Source: a virus (Duplodnaviria > Heunggongvirae > Uroviricota > Caudoviricetes). From it: a DNA stretch of 64,000 nt. The notes under the pieces were generated by a model. It was not told the DNA's origin. It saw only the letters and a list, made by a program, of their open reading frames with translations, and searched no databases. Position 1 is the first letter of the stretch; every line of letters starts with the position of its first letter. Positions 7,873 to 59,987 of the stretch are shown here, piece after piece. The position numbers were made by a program, and so were the translations under genes. Location of the stretch: the IMG/VR virus record IMGVR_UViG_2639762987_000002; one strand, written 5' to 3'.

Positions 7873-8121
7873 TTAAATAGAATTTTGAAGTTTTCCGATT
7901 AATGCGCTTAAACGTAAGTATTCACGTTTGCGCTTGCAATCTCGCTTGCTGTTAAGCAAATCAGAAAACGTAAAATTTAATTGGTCGCGTTGCGCGATCA
8001 AATCATCGATTAATTCCAGTTTATAAGCGCGATACTTTGCGCGATACTTTGCGCGGATCTTGTCATAGCTGACCATTTTTAAAGCTCCTTTAAAGCGCCC
8101 ATAGTGGGCGCTTGATTCCAT
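7873..8121 (-). CDS. hypothetical protein (82 aa; alternative internal start)
   Basis: ORF; contains a tandem 12-nt duplication encoding AKYRAKYRA. Confidence 0.4.
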   Translation of the reverse strand: MESSAHYGRFKGALKMVSYDKIRAKYRAKYRAYKLELIDDLIAQRDQLNFTFSDLLNSKRDCKRKREYLRLSALIGKLQNSI

Positions 8122-8124
8122 TAA

Positions 8125-8775
8125 TTACGCTTTAAAAGCATCAGCTAAATAATTGTAGAAATCATTCTTGATAAAGCGATATTGCTGTGTACCAGCTTTT
8201 GCGCTTCCCATTCCTTTGACTTTCTCAACAAGTCCAAGACGTTCGCAAAGATTGATCAACTGGTTGGCTTGAGTATAGCCAGCGTCCAATTTAATTTCGC
8301 ACGCTTTTTTAGCTTCATTCATTAAATCGAAAACAGCGCCATTGGTGAACGTGTCGATCTCGTCGTTAATCATATCGATTAAAGCGAATACACGAGATCC
8401 TGACATATCAGCGACGGAATAAACGCATTTACCAGCTTTAATGGATTTAACCAGATAAACCAGTTTTTCCAGTGAATAACTATTAGTCATAGCATCACGG
8501 AAAAATACTTCTGGCGCTTGTTTGCTTGCTTTAATCGCATAGTAGAAAACAGAGCATAATTTTTCGTCTTCTACTGCGTTTACGACGTTGTTGATGAAGT
8601 AAGCAAGTTTAGTGGTCGCAGCTTGCATATTTGCTTTGTCTGCTTTAGTGTGCGTACCATTTTTATAATGTTCGTTGTATGTTTGAGTTGCCAGATCTGC
8701 TTTTTCGCGCAGTTCATCGGATACAATGGAAGCAGCTTCAACGATGGATTTTTTAGAAATGATAATGTTAGCCAT
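8125..8775 (-). CDS. hypothetical protein (216 aa)
   Basis: ORF; no motif recognised. Confidence 0.55.
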   Translation of the reverse strand: MANIIISKKSIVEAASIVSDELREKADLATQTYNEHYKNGTHTKADKANMQAATTKLAYFINNVVNAVEDEKLCSVFYYAIKASKQAPEVFFRDAMTNSYSLEKLVYLVKSIKAGKCVYSVADMSGSRVFALIDMINDEIDTFTNGAVFDLMNEAKKACEIKLDAGYTQANQLINLCERLGLVEKVKGMGSAKAGTQQYRFIKNDFYNYLADAFKA

Positions 8776-55615: not shown

Positions 55616-55690
55616 GATGGTGTAGCTCAGCGGTAGAGCAGTTGGCTGTTAACCAACTGGTCGGTGGTTCGAATCCACCCACCATCGCCA
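55616..55690 (+). tRNA. tRNA-Asn (anticodon GTT)
   Basis: Hand-folded cloverleaf: acceptor gatggtg/caccatc, anticodon loop ctGTTaa, T-loop ttcgaat, encoded CCA. Confidence 0.85.
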
Positions 55691-55695
55691 ATTTA

Positions 55696-55782
55696 GGGGA
55701 GTTAGTCCGTAGAGGTAGCGGTGTAGACTGTAAATCTACTGTCATGGCGACTCGGGTGGTTCGACTCCATCACTCCCCACCA
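55696..55782 (+). tRNA. tRNA-Tyr (anticodon GTA), long variable arm
   Basis: Acceptor ggggagt/actcccc, anticodon stem-loop gtaga-ctGTAaa-tctac, 87 nt, encoded CCA. Confidence 0.8.
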
Positions 55783-55786
55783 AATT

Positions 55787-55862
55787 GCCGGTTTAGCTCA
55801 GTTGGTAGAGCGCCTGCCTTGTAAGCAGGATGTCAGCGGTTCGAGTCCGTTAACCGGCACCA
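55787..55862 (+). tRNA. tRNA-Thr (anticodon TGT)
   Basis: Acceptor gccggtt/aaccggc, D-arm gctcagttggtagagc, anticodon loop ctTGTaa, encoded CCA. Confidence 0.85.
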
Positions 55863-56079
55863 ACACAACAGGAAAGAGCATTGAAAACCGCCGAGACTGC
55901 CCTGTTTTAAGCGTAAGTCCGTGCAAACGTCATACAGTGCTCTTTTCGTTGTGGTTGATGCGCAGACTGATGCGCGGAAAGAAATGCCCCAGCGACACAC
56001 GAGGCGAGTTCACACACTGCAATGCAGTCAGTAGCCGGGGTCGCTAAGCCGGAGATCAGTACCGGTAACCACAACAATT

Positions 56080-56166
56080 GGAGAGTAGGGAGCATGGTGC
56101 TCAAGCGGTCTTGAAAACCGTCCCATTGTGCAAACGATGATGGTTCGATTCCATTACTCTCCGCCA
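56080..56166 (+). tRNA. tRNA-Ser (anticodon TGA), long variable arm
   Basis: Acceptor ggagagt/actctcc, anticodon loop ctTGAaa, 87 nt, encoded CCA. Confidence 0.8.
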
Positions 56167-56278
56167 GACACAGCGTTGAGCGGTTTGGCCTTTTAATCAA
56201 CTCGATTAAGACTCCGCTAACATAAACCAGACCGCTCAACGCTGTGATAGATAATTACGGCAGACGTTCTTAACCATA

Positions 56279-56346
56279 GCTTGCTAACATCCTAGCAACA
56301 CTTTTTTCAGCGCAAAATTCAAAGGGGCTTCGGCCCCTTTTTTGTT
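56279..56346 (+). terminator. Two tandem Rho-independent terminators after the tRNA cluster
   Basis: ttgctaacatcctagcaa plus cactttttt, then ggggcttcggcccc plus ttttttt. Confidence 0.8.
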
Positions 56347-56358
56347 GAACAGTGCAAT

Positions 56359-57621
56359 TTACTTTGCATAGTCGCCCAATTTTAATATTTCGCGCTTATA
56401 TTCATTAACCATGCTACTGGATTCAGTATAAATTCGATTTAAAAGATTATCGTTATCTTTATTTTCATTTATCTTAATTAGTGCTAATTTATATTCATAG
56501 TCATCAAATGCCACAATTAAATGGTGGCCTGGGATTATATCTTCGTCACTCTTAAAGTATATATCTTCAAGTATGTAATCTAGTTGATTAGATTTTCTTT
56601 TCTCGATGTAATCTTCAGCCATAGCTATTACATCATTCCTGTCATTTAACCTGTTTTTTTCGGAAGGCACATCTTCGTAATGTTGCACGATTGAACAACC
56701 AATAAGGCGTGGGATGTAAACGTCAAAATGAGTAACTCTATCATTCGCGGTTTTAAGTAGTTCCTCAAAGTAGTTTCTTACATGTAAAGGCAACTTCTCA
56801 AAGTAATCATTAATTATAGGAGAACAAGGAGTTTTATAATTCATAAGAACCGACGGTACGAGCTTTGGGTGTCGAAACATCCAGTCCCTTTTAACGTCCG
56901 ATGGAACATAATAACTTTTAATGATATTATCAAAATAATTTATCATTCGAGATTTGAATATTTTGTTGAATCTAAGGTTTATGAATGTATCCAGATAAGG
57001 CATATTTGAATAAGCATCATCAAAAAATATTTCTTCATTGAAGAAATCATATTTATTTAATAAATAAAACAGTTTTTCCGAATTAATATGTTCACAATAA
57101 TCGATTTTTAATCCAAAGATAGCAATGATCAACTTCATCTGAGGTGGGATTTTAAAAATTAATTGTGACACATACGCTCTTTTTTCCTTGAGACATTCCC
57201 CATCAATATAAAATGAACCATCCACATACTCAAATATATTAATAATATGCTTCACATACTGTATTACCTCATGCTGTCTTACCAATGGATAATATAGTCT
57301 ATGTAACTCATCGCTGTTTAAATTAATTTTGTGTTTATCGATAATTTGTTTTGCAAGAAGACATAACTCATCATGTTGATTTAATAAGGAATCAAACCAT
57401 TGTTTAAATGCACTCTTTCGCATTTCGAACAATGATTCAGTTGTTAATTGAAGGGCTGAAAAAGCCGCTTTTGCACTTTTTCTCGCTTCGTAGGCATTCC
57501 ATGCTGTTGCTATAAAAGCAAATGCTGTAGCCAATGTTCCAACAGTTTGACCATTTAAAACAACCCAATCCCAAAAAATGACGGTGAGCAGTAGTATAAT
57601 AATGAAAATTAAAAAAGGCAT
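56359..57621 (-). CDS. AT-rich membrane-anchored protein of unknown function (420 aa)
   Basis: Visibly AT-rich versus neighbours; N-terminal hydrophobic helices (FLIFIIILLLTVIFWDWVV, TLATAFAFIATAW); no catalytic motif recognised. Confidence 0.7.
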   Translation of the reverse strand: MPFLIFIIILLLTVIFWDWVVLNGQTVGTLATAFAFIATAWNAYEARKSAKAAFSALQLTTESLFEMRKSAFKQWFDSLLNQHDELCLLAKQIIDKHKINLNSDELHRLYYPLVRQHEVIQYVKHIINIFEYVDGSFYIDGECLKEKRAYVSQLIFKIPPQMKLIIAIFGLKIDYCEHINSEKLFYLLNKYDFFNEEIFFDDAYSNMPYLDTFINLRFNKIFKSRMINYFDNIIKSYYVPSDVKRDWMFRHPKLVPSVLMNYKTPCSPIINDYFEKLPLHVRNYFEELLKTANDRVTHFDVYIPRLIGCSIVQHYEDVPSEKNRLNDRNDVIAMAEDYIEKRKSNQLDYILEDIYFKSDEDIIPGHHLIVAFDDYEYKLALIKINENKDNDNLLNRIYTESSSMVNEYKREILKLGDYAK

Positions 57622-57729
57622 GTATGTATTTCACTCTACTAACTATAAAATATTAGGCTAATGTTAACCAAACAATGCCTTAATTAATAGATTGATCGAG
57701 GCTTTAATAGCTTTATAATGCAGACCGCA

Positions 57730-57755
57730 AAGATAGGTATGCACATACCTATCTT
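57730..57755. promoter_or_regulatory. 26-bp operator-like palindrome with 11-bp perfect arms
   Basis: aagataggtat gcac atacctatctt, followed by gtaagtaaagttac. Confidence 0.5.
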
Positions 57756-57795
57756 CTTTGTAAGTAAAGTTACATATCAATTCTACGAGGTCACA

Positions 57796-58041
57796 ATGAC
57801 GATCACTATCTACGGACGAGATAACTGCTCATACTGCAAACGTGCGGTCGAGCTGGCGAAGCAACTAAAGGGACATGGCTACGGTGATTATGAGTACATC
57901 GACATCACCACTGCCGGTATCGACAAGGAAAAACTAAGTGAAATTGTTGGTAAACCGGTAGAGACTATCCCCCAAGTGCTGATCGATGGCCAACCGATTG
58001 GCGGATACACAGAACTGGCTGCATACGTCAGCACCCTCTGA
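57796..58041 (+). CDS. grxA: glutaredoxin 1-like protein (81 aa)
   Basis: CSYC active site and GKPVETIPQVLIDGQPIGGYTELAAYV, closely resembling E. coli GrxA from memory. Confidence 0.8.
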   Translation: MTITIYGRDNCSYCKRAVELAKQLKGHGYGDYEYIDITTAGIDKEKLSEIVGKPVETIPQVLIDGQPIGGYTELAAYVSTL

Positions 58042-58046
58042 TTTTA

Positions 58047-58070
58047 ACGGCTCACAGGAGCCGTTTTTAT
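58047..58070 (+). terminator. Rho-independent terminator
   Basis: Hairpin acggctcacaggagccgt followed by ttttt. Confidence 0.75.
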
Positions 58071-58251
58071 TCCCACCAAACTCACTCCCGTTTCCCTTAA
58101 AATTCAAAAAACAACGTCAAAATGATTCCATACCTACTATGTATGGAATCATTGCTGAAAATGAGTTACTTTTACTCTTGATCCTATAAGAATCTATGCC
58201 TAATATACTGTTTACTTATACAGTGCATCGGCGTAACTCGGTGATTGTCAT

Positions 58252-59355
58252 ATGAAAAATAGCTTTGACAGAGCACGCGCTGCGGAGAACACCTCAAAAG
58301 AGGCGATAGAGTATCTCGAAAGAGCATCTCAAATGCAGGCCGTTATGATCTCGCAGGTTAGCAATGACATGAGATTCTCGGACGCATTCATGTTATTCAC
58401 TCGCTTATCTCTGCTGATAACCAGACGTCGGCCAGAGATCGCTGTTCATTGTATTTTGATACATGTTTTGCCGCACATTGCCGATGTAAAAGTAAGTGAC
58501 ATTAATAGGTTCATGGTGAACCAACTGGTCAACCCACTAATACTGGATGGCAAAATTGTTATGGGCCGCCGCGTTTTCTCTCTGATGAAGCAGTTCCTTA
58601 GCTGGTGCGCCTTCCAGGGGATGATAGACGTGTCACCGTTAAACGATATGTCACTAAACAAAGTTGCCGGTGGCGCAAAGCCCACACCTCGCGAGCGGAA
58701 GCTGACCGACGCAGAGGTATGGGTGTTCTGGAATATATGGGACTACTTCAATGTGTGCGCTGGTACAAAATGGGCGGCCAGGCTGTGTCTTGTATCCGCA
58801 AGACGACCTGACGAAGTACTGCGGGCTAAAAAAAGTGAGTTCAATCTTAAGCGTGGGGTTTGGAATCAAGGCAAGAGGAACAAATCTGCCCGTGAGCATT
58901 CGCTGCCTTTAAGCACATTAATGCGCACATGTATTGAAGAGTTGTTCGAATACGGTAAAGGCAGCCAGTGGCTCGTGCCTTCGAATAAAAAAATCGGGAA
59001 AGACCTTCCTATGTCTAAAGTGGCAATAGCCCAGGCATTACGTCGTATCCTGGAACGACCAGAACTGATGGAGCTTGAGCCATTTACACCCCGAGACTTG
59101 CGCCGTACTGCGCGTAGTTACTTCCCAGCATTAGGCATAAGCCAGGAGGTATCACGTAAAATCATGAACCACAGTCTTGAGGGGATAGATCGAGTCTACG
59201 ACCGGCACGATTATATGGACGAGATGCGAGACGCCTTAGAAAGTTTCTCGACGTACATCGCATCAATCGTAGAGCAACCGGATTTAGACGAAATTGACCA
59301 CAAATTTAAGGGAGATCGTCTATCAACAGAGCTTATTCGTGTAAATTTTTCATAG
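58252..59355 (+). CDS. int: tyrosine recombinase / integrase (367 aa)
   Basis: C-terminal catalytic region with conserved R (PRDLRRTARS), HxxR-like and Y (VYDRHDY) residues. Confidence 0.8.
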   Translation: MKNSFDRARAAENTSKEAIEYLERASQMQAVMISQVSNDMRFSDAFMLFTRLSLLITRRRPEIAVHCILIHVLPHIADVKVSDINRFMVNQLVNPLILDGKIVMGRRVFSLMKQFLSWCAFQGMIDVSPLNDMSLNKVAGGAKPTPRERKLTDAEVWVFWNIWDYFNVCAGTKWAARLCLVSARRPDEVLRAKKSEFNLKRGVWNQGKRNKSAREHSLPLSTLMRTCIEELFEYGKGSQWLVPSNKKIGKDLPMSKVAIAQALRRILERPELMELEPFTPRDLRRTARSYFPALGISQEVSRKIMNHSLEGIDRVYDRHDYMDEMRDALESFSTYIASIVEQPDLDEIDHKFKGDRLSTELIRVNFS

Positions 59356-59736
59356 AGACTTTATGGCCTCAACAACCTTTTGTGATGCGCCTTTCTCTTT
59401 ACCGAATCGCTCGTTATATGCAGCAAGAACCTGTTTTTCGTCCTCGTTAAGAGGAGCAGTGCCTTCTTTGTATAAAAATGCTGCGAGTTCGGGTTGGCGT
59501 TCTTCCAGCACCATCATCATAAGACGACTTGGCTCAATACCCAGTGCCAGCGCCAGCGGACGAACCTTATCGATAGGCAAAGGAATTTTGCCGCTTTTAA
59601 TTAAAGAAAGGTTGTTGGCGTTTTTATACCCAATTGTTTTGGCTATCTGGGCCTGGCTCATAGGTGAGGATTCAATCAACCCTGCGATAAAAGCAGCGTA
59701 GCGACTTTCTATAAATTCAATCTTGTTATCAGACAT
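59350..59736 (-). CDS. XRE-family HTH transcriptional regulator, repressor-like (128 aa)
   Basis: HTH SQAQIAKTIGYKNANNLSLIKSGK; divergent from the downstream + strand genes. Confidence 0.7.
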   Translation of the reverse strand: MSDNKIEFIESRYAAFIAGLIESSPMSQAQIAKTIGYKNANNLSLIKSGKIPLPIDKVRPLALALGIEPSRLMMMVLEERQPELAAFLYKEGTAPLNEDEKQVLAAYNERFGKEKGASQKVVEAIKSL

Positions 59737-59987
59737 GGTTACAACCTTTGCGCGTTCAATTCTCTCTGGTAAGTGCTTACCGATATTACATCAAAGGTTA
59801 GGGTTGTAAAGCTATTATCATTTTTTTCGATAGGCACTTAAAAGACCGGTTAAAGGCCATTGCACGGAGAAAAATTAGCCCAAAATAGGTAAGAAAATTA
59901 ACTTGCATATGATATGAATGTATTCAGTATTGATACAAATTTTAGTAGTATTCCTTACCATAGTATAAGTTAGAATGGATTGATTGA

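What the first reader, a model, noticed from the sequence alone, without database searches (positions are those of the whole stretch)
56359..57621. AT-rich lone gene for a 420-aa membrane-anchored protein wedged between the tRNA cluster and the grx/integrase module
This gene is far more AT-rich than the flanking DNA, sits alone on the opposite strand, and is bracketed by strong terminators (56279-56346) and an operator-like palindrome (57730-57755). It encodes two N-terminal TM helices and a large cytoplasmic domain with no motif I can assign. A possible Rx5H stretch (KRDWMFRH) is too weak to call HEPN. That combination is typical of a horizontally acquired moron such as an abortive-infection or superinfection-exclusion factor, and a single-gene membrane effector next to phage tRNAs could be an uncharacterised defence gene.
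Basis: partly seen in the sequence, partly recalled or inferred. Interest (0 to 1): 0.7.

Follow-up and report, generated by a model that had tools for sequence, protein, structure and literature searches.

The report
Hidden AbiC-like phage-defence gene cassette
This AT-rich, membrane-anchored gene on an E. coli phage-plasmid is a very divergent relative of the lactococcal AbiC/AbiP abortive-infection proteins that standard annotation and defence finders miss, and it sits in a swap-in slot where related elements carry other alleles or a known Abi system, so it is very probably an anti-phage gene, though no experiment has tested this.

Summary
A 420-aa ORF lies at 56359-57621 (-). Its GC is 31.4% against 46.2% for the window, the window-wide minimum. 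It has a strong N-terminal TM helix plus a weaker second one, a bidirectional terminator behind it and a perfect 12-bp-arm palindrome upstream.

The protein has no direct Pfam, NCBIfam or PADLOC hit. An exhaustive profile search finds a small family of 67 representative clusters. 37 of 49 full-length members match Pfam PF16872 (putAbiC). hhalign links the window protein's close relatives to proteins that pass the PF16872 cut-off at 99.95% probability (E 1.8e-38, 395 columns).

Similarity to the lactococcal AbiC group itself covers only a 60-residue core (88% probability, E 2.8e-6). No solved or viral structure shares the fold.

The gene is a cassette in a hotspot of SSU5-like phage-plasmids. 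Backbones 99-100% identical carry alleles only 31-54% identical, an AbiGi system, unknown genes, or nothing. Homologs elsewhere sit next to bSEFIR, next to PARIS, and inside the P2 GpA-GpQ defence hotspot.

The HEPN idea is refuted. Verdict: a new, unannotated member of the AbiC/AbiP-type single-gene defence family. The mechanism is inferred, not shown.

The parts
56359..57621 (-). CDS of the 420-aa AbiC-like (putAbiC superfamily) protein
   Evidence: ORF. Family. dN/dS about 0.3, so it is a functional coding gene. AF2 model pLDDT 90.3.
57556..57618 (-). Codes for TM helix 1 (aa 2-22)
   Evidence: Kyte-Doolittle 19-aa mean up to 2.83. Helix 2-22 in the model.
57454..57543 (-). Codes for TM helix 2 plus the juxtamembrane motif T..AF.ATAW.A.EAR.SAKAA (aa 27-56), the most conserved block of the clade
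   Evidence: Invariant T32 A35 F36 A40 W41 A43 A46 S49 A53 in 17 sequences. 69% mean identity against 19-40% elsewhere.
57022..57273 (-). Codes for the putAbiC-homologous core (aa 117-200; Y122, F193, F194 invariant)
   Evidence: PF16872 maps here in relatives. hhalign to the lactococcal AbiC group aligns aa 117-175. Invariant columns.
56362..57021 (-). Codes for the hypervariable, acidic C-terminal half (aa 201-420), the proposed sensor or specificity domain
   Evidence: 19-20% identity among enterobacterial alleles; pI 4.8 for aa 301-420. Highest dN/dS (0.45-0.6) in aa 201-300. The role is inferred.
56346..57790 (.). The exchangeable cassette: gene plus its upstream region. Homology to sister elements breaks at about 56344-56346 and resumes at about 57784-57796.
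   Evidence: blastn of the window against loci L001, L004, L009-L013.
56321..56345 (.). Strong bidirectional intrinsic terminator (AAAGGGGCTTCGGCCCCTTT + T run). It is backbone DNA shared with the tRNA operon and starts 13 nt past the stop codon.
   Evidence: Conserved in relatives that lack the gene.
56281..56304 (+). Weaker upstream hairpin plus T run (terminator-like, + strand)
   Evidence: RNA fold; sequence.
57642..57671 (-). Weak candidate sigma-70 promoter of the gene (TTGGTT-18-TATAGT, 8 of 12 matches)
   Evidence: Relaxed scan. The stricter scan found none. Inferred only.
57730..57755 (.). Perfect palindrome AAGATAGGTATG-ca-CATACCTATCTT inside the cassette, just downstream of the + strand promoter-like site. 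It is either an operator or a 5'-UTR hairpin of the grx transcript.
   Evidence: Outer 10-bp arms are kept in the E. albertii allele. RNA fold -13.2 kcal/mol, z -3.6. The GGTA-N6-TACC core is shared with the repressor upstream region.
57692..57719 (+). Promoter-like site TTGATC-16-TATAAT reading towards grx
   Evidence: 10 of 12 matches.
55616..56166 (+). Left flank of the slot: tRNA-Asn, Tyr, Thr, Ser cluster
57796..58041 (+). Right flank of the slot: GrxA-family glutaredoxin gene (true ATG at 57796)
   Evidence: Annotated as GrxA in relatives.

Best explanation
The gene encodes a single-protein, membrane-anchored abortive-infection-type anti-phage factor of the AbiC/AbiP (Pfam putAbiC) superfamily. 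An SSU5-like phage-plasmid of E. coli carries it as an exchangeable cassette, to protect its lysogen, and so itself, against other phages.

Proposed working (inferred):
- The protein is made at a low constitutive level from its own weak promoter.
- It inserts as an N-in/C-in hairpin of two TM helices. The positive charges R47, K48 and K51 follow TM2, so the roughly 375-aa helical domain is cytoplasmic.
- The hypervariable acidic C-terminal half acts as the sensor for a phage product, by analogy with AbiP, whose trigger is the major tail protein.
- Binding is relayed through the long stalk helix (aa 24-96) and the putAbiC core to the highly conserved TM2 and juxtamembrane module.
- That module executes the block. 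The most likely route is membrane perturbation through oligomerisation of the small-residue-rich TM2. The alternative is interference with late phage gene expression at the membrane, as reported for AbiC (lower capsid protein production) and AbiP (RNA binding).

Shown here: family membership by homology, architecture, cassette behaviour, defence-hotspot context and purifying selection. Inferred: the defence function itself, topology, the sensor/effector split and the effector chemistry.

Rough odds: defence or exclusion function about 0.75. Given defence, a membrane-perturbing effector about 0.5, a nucleic-acid or expression block about 0.3, something else about 0.2.
For: Homology:
- The A1 profile finds 67 representative clusters in 1.84 billion proteins.
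- 37 of 49 full-length members hit PF16872 putAbiC, and 6 hit PADLOC AbiC and 3 AbiP.
- Ten distant members score 25-45 bits against a gathering cut-off of 22.
- Two close enterobacterial alleles, P0009 and the same-slot allele in L009, reach the cut-off themselves (22.0 and 22.1 bits).
- hhalign of A1 against the ten passing proteins gives 99.95% probability, E 1.8e-38, over 395 columns.
- tblastn with P0031 bridges PGAP-named 'putative phage abortive infection protein' genes and the SSU5 alleles.
- The wide family against the lactococcal AbiC group gives 88% probability, E 2.8e-6, over the core.

Architecture: two N-terminal helices followed by a large extramembrane helical domain, as described for AbiC (review PMC13064643; model; hydropathy).

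Hotspot:
- Flanks are 94-99.5% identical while the allele is 31% identical.
- 21 IMG/VR loci hold allele classes of about 97, 54, 37, 33 and 31% identity on backbones whose ligase and integrase are 99-100% identical for most classes.
- The same slot holds AbiGi (Pfam 4e-25, PADLOC 5.5e-47) plus a partner in pLH09-a-C.
- The slot lacks any - strand cargo gene in Cyrano and L012, which carry only a + strand Gp49-family gene there.

Guilt by association elsewhere:
- bSEFIR neighbour in an AT-rich islet of the Siccibacter chromosome.
- PARIS (AriA-like ATPase plus AriB) neighbours in Lelliottia.
- Inside the P2 GpA-GpQ hotspot in L037 (PMC13586616).

Selection: dN/dS is about 0.3 against 0.02-0.05 for the integrase.

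Modularity: TM2 and juxtamembrane 69% identity, core 40%, C-terminal half 19-20%.
Against: - No experiment exists for this clade.
- The window protein itself matches no Pfam, NCBIfam or PADLOC model, so the link is transitive.
- Similarity to the experimentally studied lactococcal AbiC is limited to about 60 residues. It is significant only with the widest alignment: A3 against A5 gives E 0.083, and BLASTP finds nothing.
- A 38%-identical AbiC-like lactococcal protein gave no protection against the phages tested (PMC11381338), so family membership does not guarantee activity.
- The mechanism of AbiC itself is unknown.
- No conserved catalytic-type residues are present, and no structural analog was found, so the effector step is conjecture.
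- TM2 is only moderately hydrophobic.
- The soluble domain is acidic, which argues against AbiP-like general nucleic-acid binding.
Confidence: 0.7

Rival explanations
1. Superinfection exclusion rather than abortive infection. The membrane protein blocks DNA entry or an early envelope step of incoming phages without harming the host, in the manner of T4 Imm/Sp or P22 SieA.
For: It is an inner-membrane anchored, prophage-encoded single gene with diversified alleles. RE-2010 annotates its hotspot gene as 'prevents superinfection'. The sequence data cannot separate exclusion from abortive infection.
Against: The homologous family (AbiC, AbiP) acts after DNA entry, on late protein production or on transcription and replication (PMC13064643). 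The bulk of the protein is predicted to be cytoplasmic and only a few residues would be exposed on the outside. There is no similarity to known Sie proteins in Pfam or PHROGs.
Confidence: 0.15
2. An accessory protein for the phage-plasmid's own biology, not aimed at other phages. Examples are lysis timing (holin or antiholin-like), membrane tethering of replication or partition, or host physiology.
For: It has an N-terminal TM hairpin. It sits beside housekeeping-type phage genes (tRNAs, grx, ligase). PHROG 18168 is of unknown function.
Against: It is dispensable. About 79% of plasmids with the SSU5-type ligase have no homolog, and sister elements with 99%-identical backbones lack it or carry unrelated cargo. 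Homologs occur outside phages next to bSEFIR or PARIS. At 420 aa it is far larger than a holin. It is homologous to an Abi family.
Confidence: 0.07
3. A weapon or shield in conflicts other than phage defence, for example an anti-defence protein or a factor that targets competing plasmids or conjugation.
For: Variable hotspots in phages also hold anti-defence genes. SSU5-like elements carry the Rad anti-retron system (preprint 10.1101/2025.09.12.675607). One SSU5-like Klebsiella plasmid is reported, in its title, to limit invasion by transferable DNA (PMC8969562, listed, not read).
Against: Homology points to Abi proteins. The co-located genes are defence systems, not anti-defence systems. Chromosomal, non-phage copies exist.
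Confidence: 0.05
4. A membrane-tethered HEPN RNase that uses the KRDWMFRH stretch as an Rx4-6H active site.
For: The R-x5-H spacing is present in the window protein (aa 255-261).
Against: The R and the H are not conserved. The H is R or Y in 83-97%-identical alleles, and the whole stretch is replaced in 32-33%-identical relatives. There is no invariant His or Arg in that region, no HEPN hit in Pfam or PADLOC, and no HEPN-like structural match.
Confidence: 0.01

Closest known systems
Gammaproteobacterial 'putative phage abortive infection protein' (Pfam PF16872 putAbiC-containing, about 430-490 aa, for example P0024, P0029, P0031; PGAP-named genes on Pantoea, Erwinia and Vibrio plasmids)
   Same: Homologous over the full length (hhalign 99.95%, E 1.8e-38, 395 columns). 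Same N-terminal hairpin, the ATAW.A.EAR.SAKAA motif, the core and a similar length.
   Different: Only about 20% identity. The window protein falls below the Pfam, PADLOC and NCBIfam thresholds and is annotated 'hypothetical protein' everywhere. None of these proteins has been tested experimentally, to my knowledge.
Lactococcus lactis AbiC (Durmaz et al. 1992; the AbiC/P group of review PMC13064643)
   Same: A single-gene system. It has two N-terminal TM helices plus an extramembrane helical domain, shares a putAbiC core of about 60 residues (88% probability, E 2.8e-6), is AT-rich and is carried on a mobile element. No structural analog is known for either protein.
   Different: There is no similarity outside the core. 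The core starts at aa 117 here and at about aa 190 in AbiC. This protein has a variable C-terminal extension of about 220 aa and a conserved juxtamembrane motif that is not detected in AbiC. The residues invariant in the lactococcal group (H200, R201, K204, N207) are not kept here. The hosts are Gram-negative against Gram-positive. The AbiC phenotype (less major capsid protein) has not been tested here.
Lactococcus lactis AbiP
   Same: Membrane-anchored single-protein Abi, structurally grouped with AbiC. The PADLOC AbiP model hits 3 distant family members over the core. Its trigger is a phage structural protein, which is the model borrowed here.
   Different: AbiP has one TM helix and a nucleic-acid-binding domain that prefers RNA. 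The soluble part here is acidic (pI 6.0), and no binding has been tested.
Defence hotspots of temperate phages and satellites (P2 GpA-GpQ, P4 int-psu; PMC13586616)
   Same: Fixed flanks with interchangeable AT-rich cargo, including known Abi systems. One family member actually lies in the P2 hotspot.
   Different: The slot here, between the tRNA cluster and grx in SSU5-like phage-plasmids, was not described as a hotspot in the papers I could search. It is small, holding one or two genes.

Membership tests
Pfam PF16872 putAbiC | The protein itself scores at or above the gathering cut-off (22 bits) against the PF16872 model | tested here: not met
   No Pfam hit for the window protein even at E <= 10.
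Pfam PF16872 putAbiC | Significant homology to proteins that do pass the cut-off | tested here: met
   37 of 49 family members hit PF16872. Ten score 25-45 bits. hhalign of A1 against those ten gives 99.95% probability, E 1.8e-38. P0009 and the same-slot L009 allele score 22.0 and 22.1 bits.
Lactococcal AbiC / AbiC-P group | N-terminal transmembrane anchor (two helices in AbiC) followed by an extramembrane helical domain | tested here: met
   Kyte-Doolittle 2.8 for aa 2-22 and 1.45 for aa 27-43. Helices 2-22 and 24-96 in a pLDDT 90 model. Feature as described in PMC13064643. TM2 is weaker than TM1.
Lactococcal AbiC / AbiC-P group | Sequence similarity to lactococcal AbiC proteins | tested here: inconclusive
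   BLASTP finds nothing. A1 and A3 profiles against the p275A homolog give E 0.3 and 0.0085. A3 against A5 gives E 0.083. Only the wide A2 against A5 reaches 88% probability, E 2.8e-6, over 60 core columns.
Lactococcal AbiC / AbiC-P group | PADLOC AbiC (PDLC02343) or AbiP (PDLC02351) model hit | tested here: not met
   No PADLOC hit for the window protein. Only 6 (AbiC) and 3 (AbiP) of 49 relatives hit, and only over the core.
Lactococcal AbiC / AbiC-P group | Abortive-infection phenotype: lower efficiency of plaquing and reduced late (capsid) protein production, with a phage-protein trigger | not testable with these tools
   Needs phage challenge experiments.
HEPN RNases | A conserved Rx4-6H motif in a helical HEPN fold | tested here: not met
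   KRDWMFRH is not conserved. No HEPN hit in Pfam or PADLOC and none in the fold searches.
Phage defence-hotspot cargo | Conserved flanks with interchangeable, unrelated cargo at sharp junctions | tested here: met
   Junctions at about 56345 and about 57790. Occupants: AbiC-like alleles of 31-97% identity, the AbiGi pair, 296-aa and 302-aa unknowns, or no - strand cargo gene (only a + strand Gp49-family gene).
Phage defence-hotspot cargo | Known defence systems occupy the same slot or neighbour the homologs | tested here: met
   AbiGi in L013. bSEFIR in L007 and AriB plus an AAA_15/21 ATPase in L006. Position in the P2 GpA-GpQ hotspot in L037.
Type III toxin-antitoxin Abi (ToxIN / AbiQ-like) | A tandem-repeat antitoxin RNA next to the toxin gene | tested here: not met
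   No tandem array and no Rfam match other than the tRNAs.

The most novel reading that the evidence does not exclude
The interval between the tRNA cluster and grx of SSU5-like phage-plasmids is a defence hotspot that has not been described. Its commonest cargo is an enterobacterial clade of AbiC-like proteins that current defence finders cannot see. In this clade a conserved TM2 and juxtamembrane module (T..AF.ATAW.A.EAR.SAKAA) would be a new membrane-acting effector, and the hypervariable C-terminal half would set phage specificity. The 296-aa and 302-aa proteins that occupy the same slot without any family assignment would then be further unknown defence genes.
Probability: 0.4. Interest if true: 0.6.

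Novelty: new member of a known kind. Interest (0 to 1): 0.45.

Why it matters
SSU5-like phage-plasmids are common in clinical E. coli, Shigella, Klebsiella, Enterobacter and Salmonella. About one in five of those in PLSDB carries a member of this family (134 of 639 plasmids with the SSU5-type ligase).

A recent large survey that used standard defence finders reported few systems in these elements and no AbiC. If the gene is active, the anti-phage armament of these elements is underestimated. That bears on phage therapy and on how these elements compete.

AbiC and AbiP have been known for more than 30 years without a mechanism. An E. coli-borne clade with natural allelic series on isogenic backbones offers a tractable way to map trigger specificity (C-terminal swaps) and effector function (the conserved TM2 motif).

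Tried and rejected
- Direct family scans of the window protein found nothing informative: Pfam 0 hits, NCBIfam 0, PADLOC 0, and one PHROG of unknown function.
- Sequence search of PDB chains gave only noise.
- The first AF2 model, built from 7 sequences, was poor (pLDDT 63). It was replaced by a model built from 49 sequences (pLDDT 90.3).
- tblastn against 50,697 deposited phage genomes gave no hit.
- HEPN was rejected because the motif is not conserved.
- A weak PD-T4-4_B hit in one distant member was rejected. That system is an ATPase plus a PD-(D/E)XK nuclease.
- A weak SLATT_1 hit (E 0.23) in P0008 is not significant.
- A type III TA or RNA partner was rejected.
- A genome scan with the 49-sequence alignment failed for lack of a conserved stretch. 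The 17-sequence alignment found only 3 loci because the peptide pattern is strict.
- The look-up of encoding contigs for P0077 returned nothing on record.
- The half-site AAGATAGGTATG is enriched at <=2 mismatches (13 found against 3.8 expected), but the other copies are scattered single half-sites, so I did not interpret them.
Full report
**1. The observation**

Its composition is a clear outlier. The gene is 31.4% GC (GC3 28.3%). The window mean is 46.2%, with SD 3.5% for gene-sized windows. Only 0.17% of such windows are as low, all overlapping this gene, and the window-wide minimum lies inside it.

It is the only - strand gene between a + strand tRNA cluster (Asn, Tyr, Thr, Ser; 55616-56166) and a GrxA-type glutaredoxin gene. 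The true grx ATG is at 57796. An integrase (58252-59355) and an XRE-type repressor (59350-59736, -) follow.

Two hairpin-plus-T-run elements lie 3' of the gene. The strong one (56321-56340, AAAGGGGCTTCGGCCCCTTT followed by a T run) forms on both strands and starts 13 nt past the stop codon. The palindrome at 57730-57755 has perfect 12-nt arms.

Hydropathy gives one strong TM segment (aa 2-22, Kyte-Doolittle 2.8) and one weaker segment (aa 27-43, 1.45).

**2. The replicon**

The window is an SSU5-like phage-plasmid of E. coli. The nearest records are 'Escherichia phage CMS-2020a' and phage Cyrano, both about 108 kb, and many E. coli plasmids of 105-115 kb. All matches in complete E. coli genomes are on plasmids. 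Only 39 of 5,426 genomes carry at least 80% of the 56200-57800 stretch.

**3. What the protein is**

On its own it matches nothing in Pfam, NCBIfam or PADLOC. It matches one PHROG of unknown function. The word-indexed search found only seven clusters.

An exhaustive HMMER search with the alignment of these (A1) against 1.84 billion representatives found 67 clusters at E <= 1e-3 and 45 at E <= 1e-10. Most are 415-490 aa. I scanned 49 full-length members individually:
- 37 match Pfam PF16872 'putAbiC, putative phage abortive infection protein'.
- 6 match PADLOC AbiC and 3 match AbiP.
- Ten distant members score 25-45 bits against the gathering cut-off of 22.
- Close enterobacterial alleles reach the cut-off (P0009 22.0 bits; L009, which sits in this very slot, 22.1 bits) or fall just below it (P0007 18 bits; P0014 19.2; P0016 19.5).

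The 80-position Pfam core maps to aa ~117-200 of the window protein. That region holds the family-wide invariants Y122, F193 and F194.

A profile-profile comparison of A1 against the ten cut-off-passing proteins gives 99.95% probability, E 1.8e-38, over 395 columns. So the homology is full length and not only in the core. Plain tblastn with one such protein (P0031) hits both PGAP-named 'putative phage abortive infection protein' genes and the SSU5 alleles annotated 'hypothetical protein'.

**4. How close is it to the real AbiC?**

I retrieved the AbiC homolog of L. lactis plasmid p275A (named in PMC6458302; L015:19553-20569) and built its family (A5, 21 sequences, nearly all with PF16872).
- BLASTP against the window protein finds nothing.
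- The narrow profiles are not significant.
- The wide family alignment A2 against A5 gives 88% probability, E 2.8e-6. The match covers only 60 columns: window aa 117-175 against AbiC aa 190-249.

**5. Anatomy and evolution**

Among 17 enterobacterial alleles the most conserved block is TM2 plus the juxtamembrane segment, T..AF.ATAW.A.EAR.SAKAA (aa 32-53):

| Region | Mean identity to the window protein |
|---|---|
| TM2 + juxtamembrane (aa 27-56) | 69% |
| putAbiC core (aa 117-200) | 40% |
| C-terminal 220 aa | 19-20% |

No His, Asp or Cys is conserved, so no catalytic centre is evident. The KRDWMFRH stretch varies even among close alleles, which refutes the HEPN idea. The soluble part is acidic (pI 6.0; aa 301-420 pI 4.8).

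Among alleles 86-96% identical, dN/dS is about 0.3. The neighbouring integrase gives 0.02-0.05. The highest values (0.45-0.6) are in aa 201-300. One allele has a mosaic 5' end. The gene is therefore functional and evolves fast.

**6. The slot is a hotspot**

In every sister element, homology stops at about 56344-56346 (the end of the terminator) and resumes at about 57784-57796 (the grx RBS and start). Within those fixed junctions I found:
- the window's allele group;
- alleles only 54%, 37%, 33% and 31% identical, on backbones whose ligase and integrase are 99-100% identical for most classes (the 33% class is on a 90-94% backbone);
- unknown proteins of 296 aa and 302 aa;
- an AbiGi protein (Pfam 4e-25, PADLOC 5.5e-47) with a 403-aa partner, in the same orientation;
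- no - strand gene at all, with only a + strand Gp49-family gene ahead of grx (Cyrano, L012).

In Klebsiella and Enterobacter elements the 34-36% alleles keep the same position next to the tRNAs. In PLSDB, 639 plasmids carry the SSU5-type ligase. 134 carry a homolog and 37 carry this allele group.

**7. Homologs elsewhere**

- In the Siccibacter turicensis chromosome (about 60% GC) the homolog lies in a 4-kb AT-rich islet together with bSEFIR (PADLOC 8.8e-111), between housekeeping transporter genes.
- In Lelliottia it is followed by a PARIS-like pair: an AAA_15/21 ATPase and AriB (6.6e-23).
- In a P2-like prophage (L037) it sits between the portal GpQ and GpA. That interval is the main P2 defence hotspot (PMC13586616).
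- Every copy examined is AT-rich (30-40% GC) whatever the host replicon.

**8. Regulation**

The strict scan found no promoter for the gene. A relaxed scan gives a weak TTGGTT-18-TATAGT site at 57671-57642.

The palindrome lies within the cassette, immediately downstream of a good + strand promoter-like site that reads into grx. Its outer arms are kept in the E. albertii allele. Its core, GGTA-N6-TACC, occurs only once more in the 64 kb, just upstream of the repressor gene (4 of 100 shuffles reach two copies). It could be an operator or a 5'-UTR hairpin. This is unresolved.

There is no RNA family hit other than the tRNAs and no repeat array, so no type III antitoxin-like partner.

**9. Interpretation**

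The best-supported reading is a single-gene, membrane-anchored Abi-type defence protein of the AbiC/AbiP superfamily, carried as hotspot cargo by a phage-plasmid.

The conservation gradient suggests a conserved membrane module (effector or anchor), a conserved core, and a fast-evolving cytoplasmic C-terminal sensor. The acidic soluble domain and the small-residue-rich, invariant TM2 make a membrane-directed effector somewhat more likely than AbiP-like nucleic-acid binding. Neither has been shown.

Rivals are true superinfection exclusion, a role in the element's own life cycle, and another kind of inter-element conflict. These are less well supported. HEPN is refuted.

A large 2025 survey of phage-plasmids listed several defence systems in SSU5-like elements but no AbiC. 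That fits this clade being invisible to current finders.

**10. Verdict**

This is a new, unannotated member of a known but mechanistically unsolved family. The finding is not categorically new, but the gene is a good experimental candidate in a slot that appears not to have been described as a defence hotspot.

Noticed in passing
window 58042-58251; L001:4365-4919 (-); L013:7540-8463 (-); L011:2502-2729 (-): A second variable slot lies between grx and the integrase. It is empty in the window. Sister elements hold - strand genes of 184 aa (Cyrano), 307 aa (pLH09-a-C) and 75 aa there. The two larger ones have no Pfam or PADLOC match.
   Followed up: partly
L010:1256-2146 (-) and L011:1148-2056 (-): Proteins of 296 aa and 302 aa occupy the same tRNA-grx slot in other E. 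coli SSU5-like plasmids. They have no Pfam or PADLOC hit and are candidate unknown defence genes.
   Followed up: partly
window 57736-57749 and 59768-59781: GGTA-N6-TACC occurs only twice in the 64 kb: in the cassette palindrome, and about 32 bp upstream of the XRE-type repressor gene start (GGTAAGTGCTTACC). 0.19 copies are expected and 4 of 100 shuffles reach two. It may be a shared operator.
   Followed up: partly
window 7873-8775 (-): A second low-GC island (below 37% GC) holds two - strand ORFs of 82 aa and 216 aa. It has not been analysed.
   Followed up: no
L007:3600-7800 (Siccibacter turicensis chromosome): A 4-kb AT-rich islet (30-43% GC in a 60% GC chromosome) holds only a bSEFIR gene and an AbiC-like gene, divergently oriented, between an Asp-Al_Ex permease and an MFS transporter. 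It is a minimal defence island.
   Followed up: yes
L037:2087-3712: In the P2-like prophage, the hotspot between the portal and the AbiC-like gene contains about 1.6 kb of further cargo that RE-2010 lacks. RE-2010 has an AIPR gene at that position. The cargo was not identified.
   Followed up: no
L016:2201-2370 (5' end of the allele in pSCMY1): The first 56 codons of this 91%-identical allele have dS 0.54, against 0.03-0.16 for the rest of the gene. This points to intragenic recombination between allele classes at the TM-hairpin end.
   Followed up: partly
window 55696-55782 versus L001, L004, L009-L011: tRNA-Tyr is present in the window but absent from several otherwise near-identical sister elements. 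The spacing between tRNA-Thr and tRNA-Ser also varies, so the tRNA cluster is itself polymorphic.
   Followed up: no
L002:326-1159 (Klebsiella pKPN1409_2): Beyond grx, Klebsiella SSU5-like elements carry further accessory genes: a YafO-family toxin, a microcin immunity protein, and phoH and Gp49 between grx and the AbiC-like gene. The region is more expanded than in E. coli.
   Followed up: no
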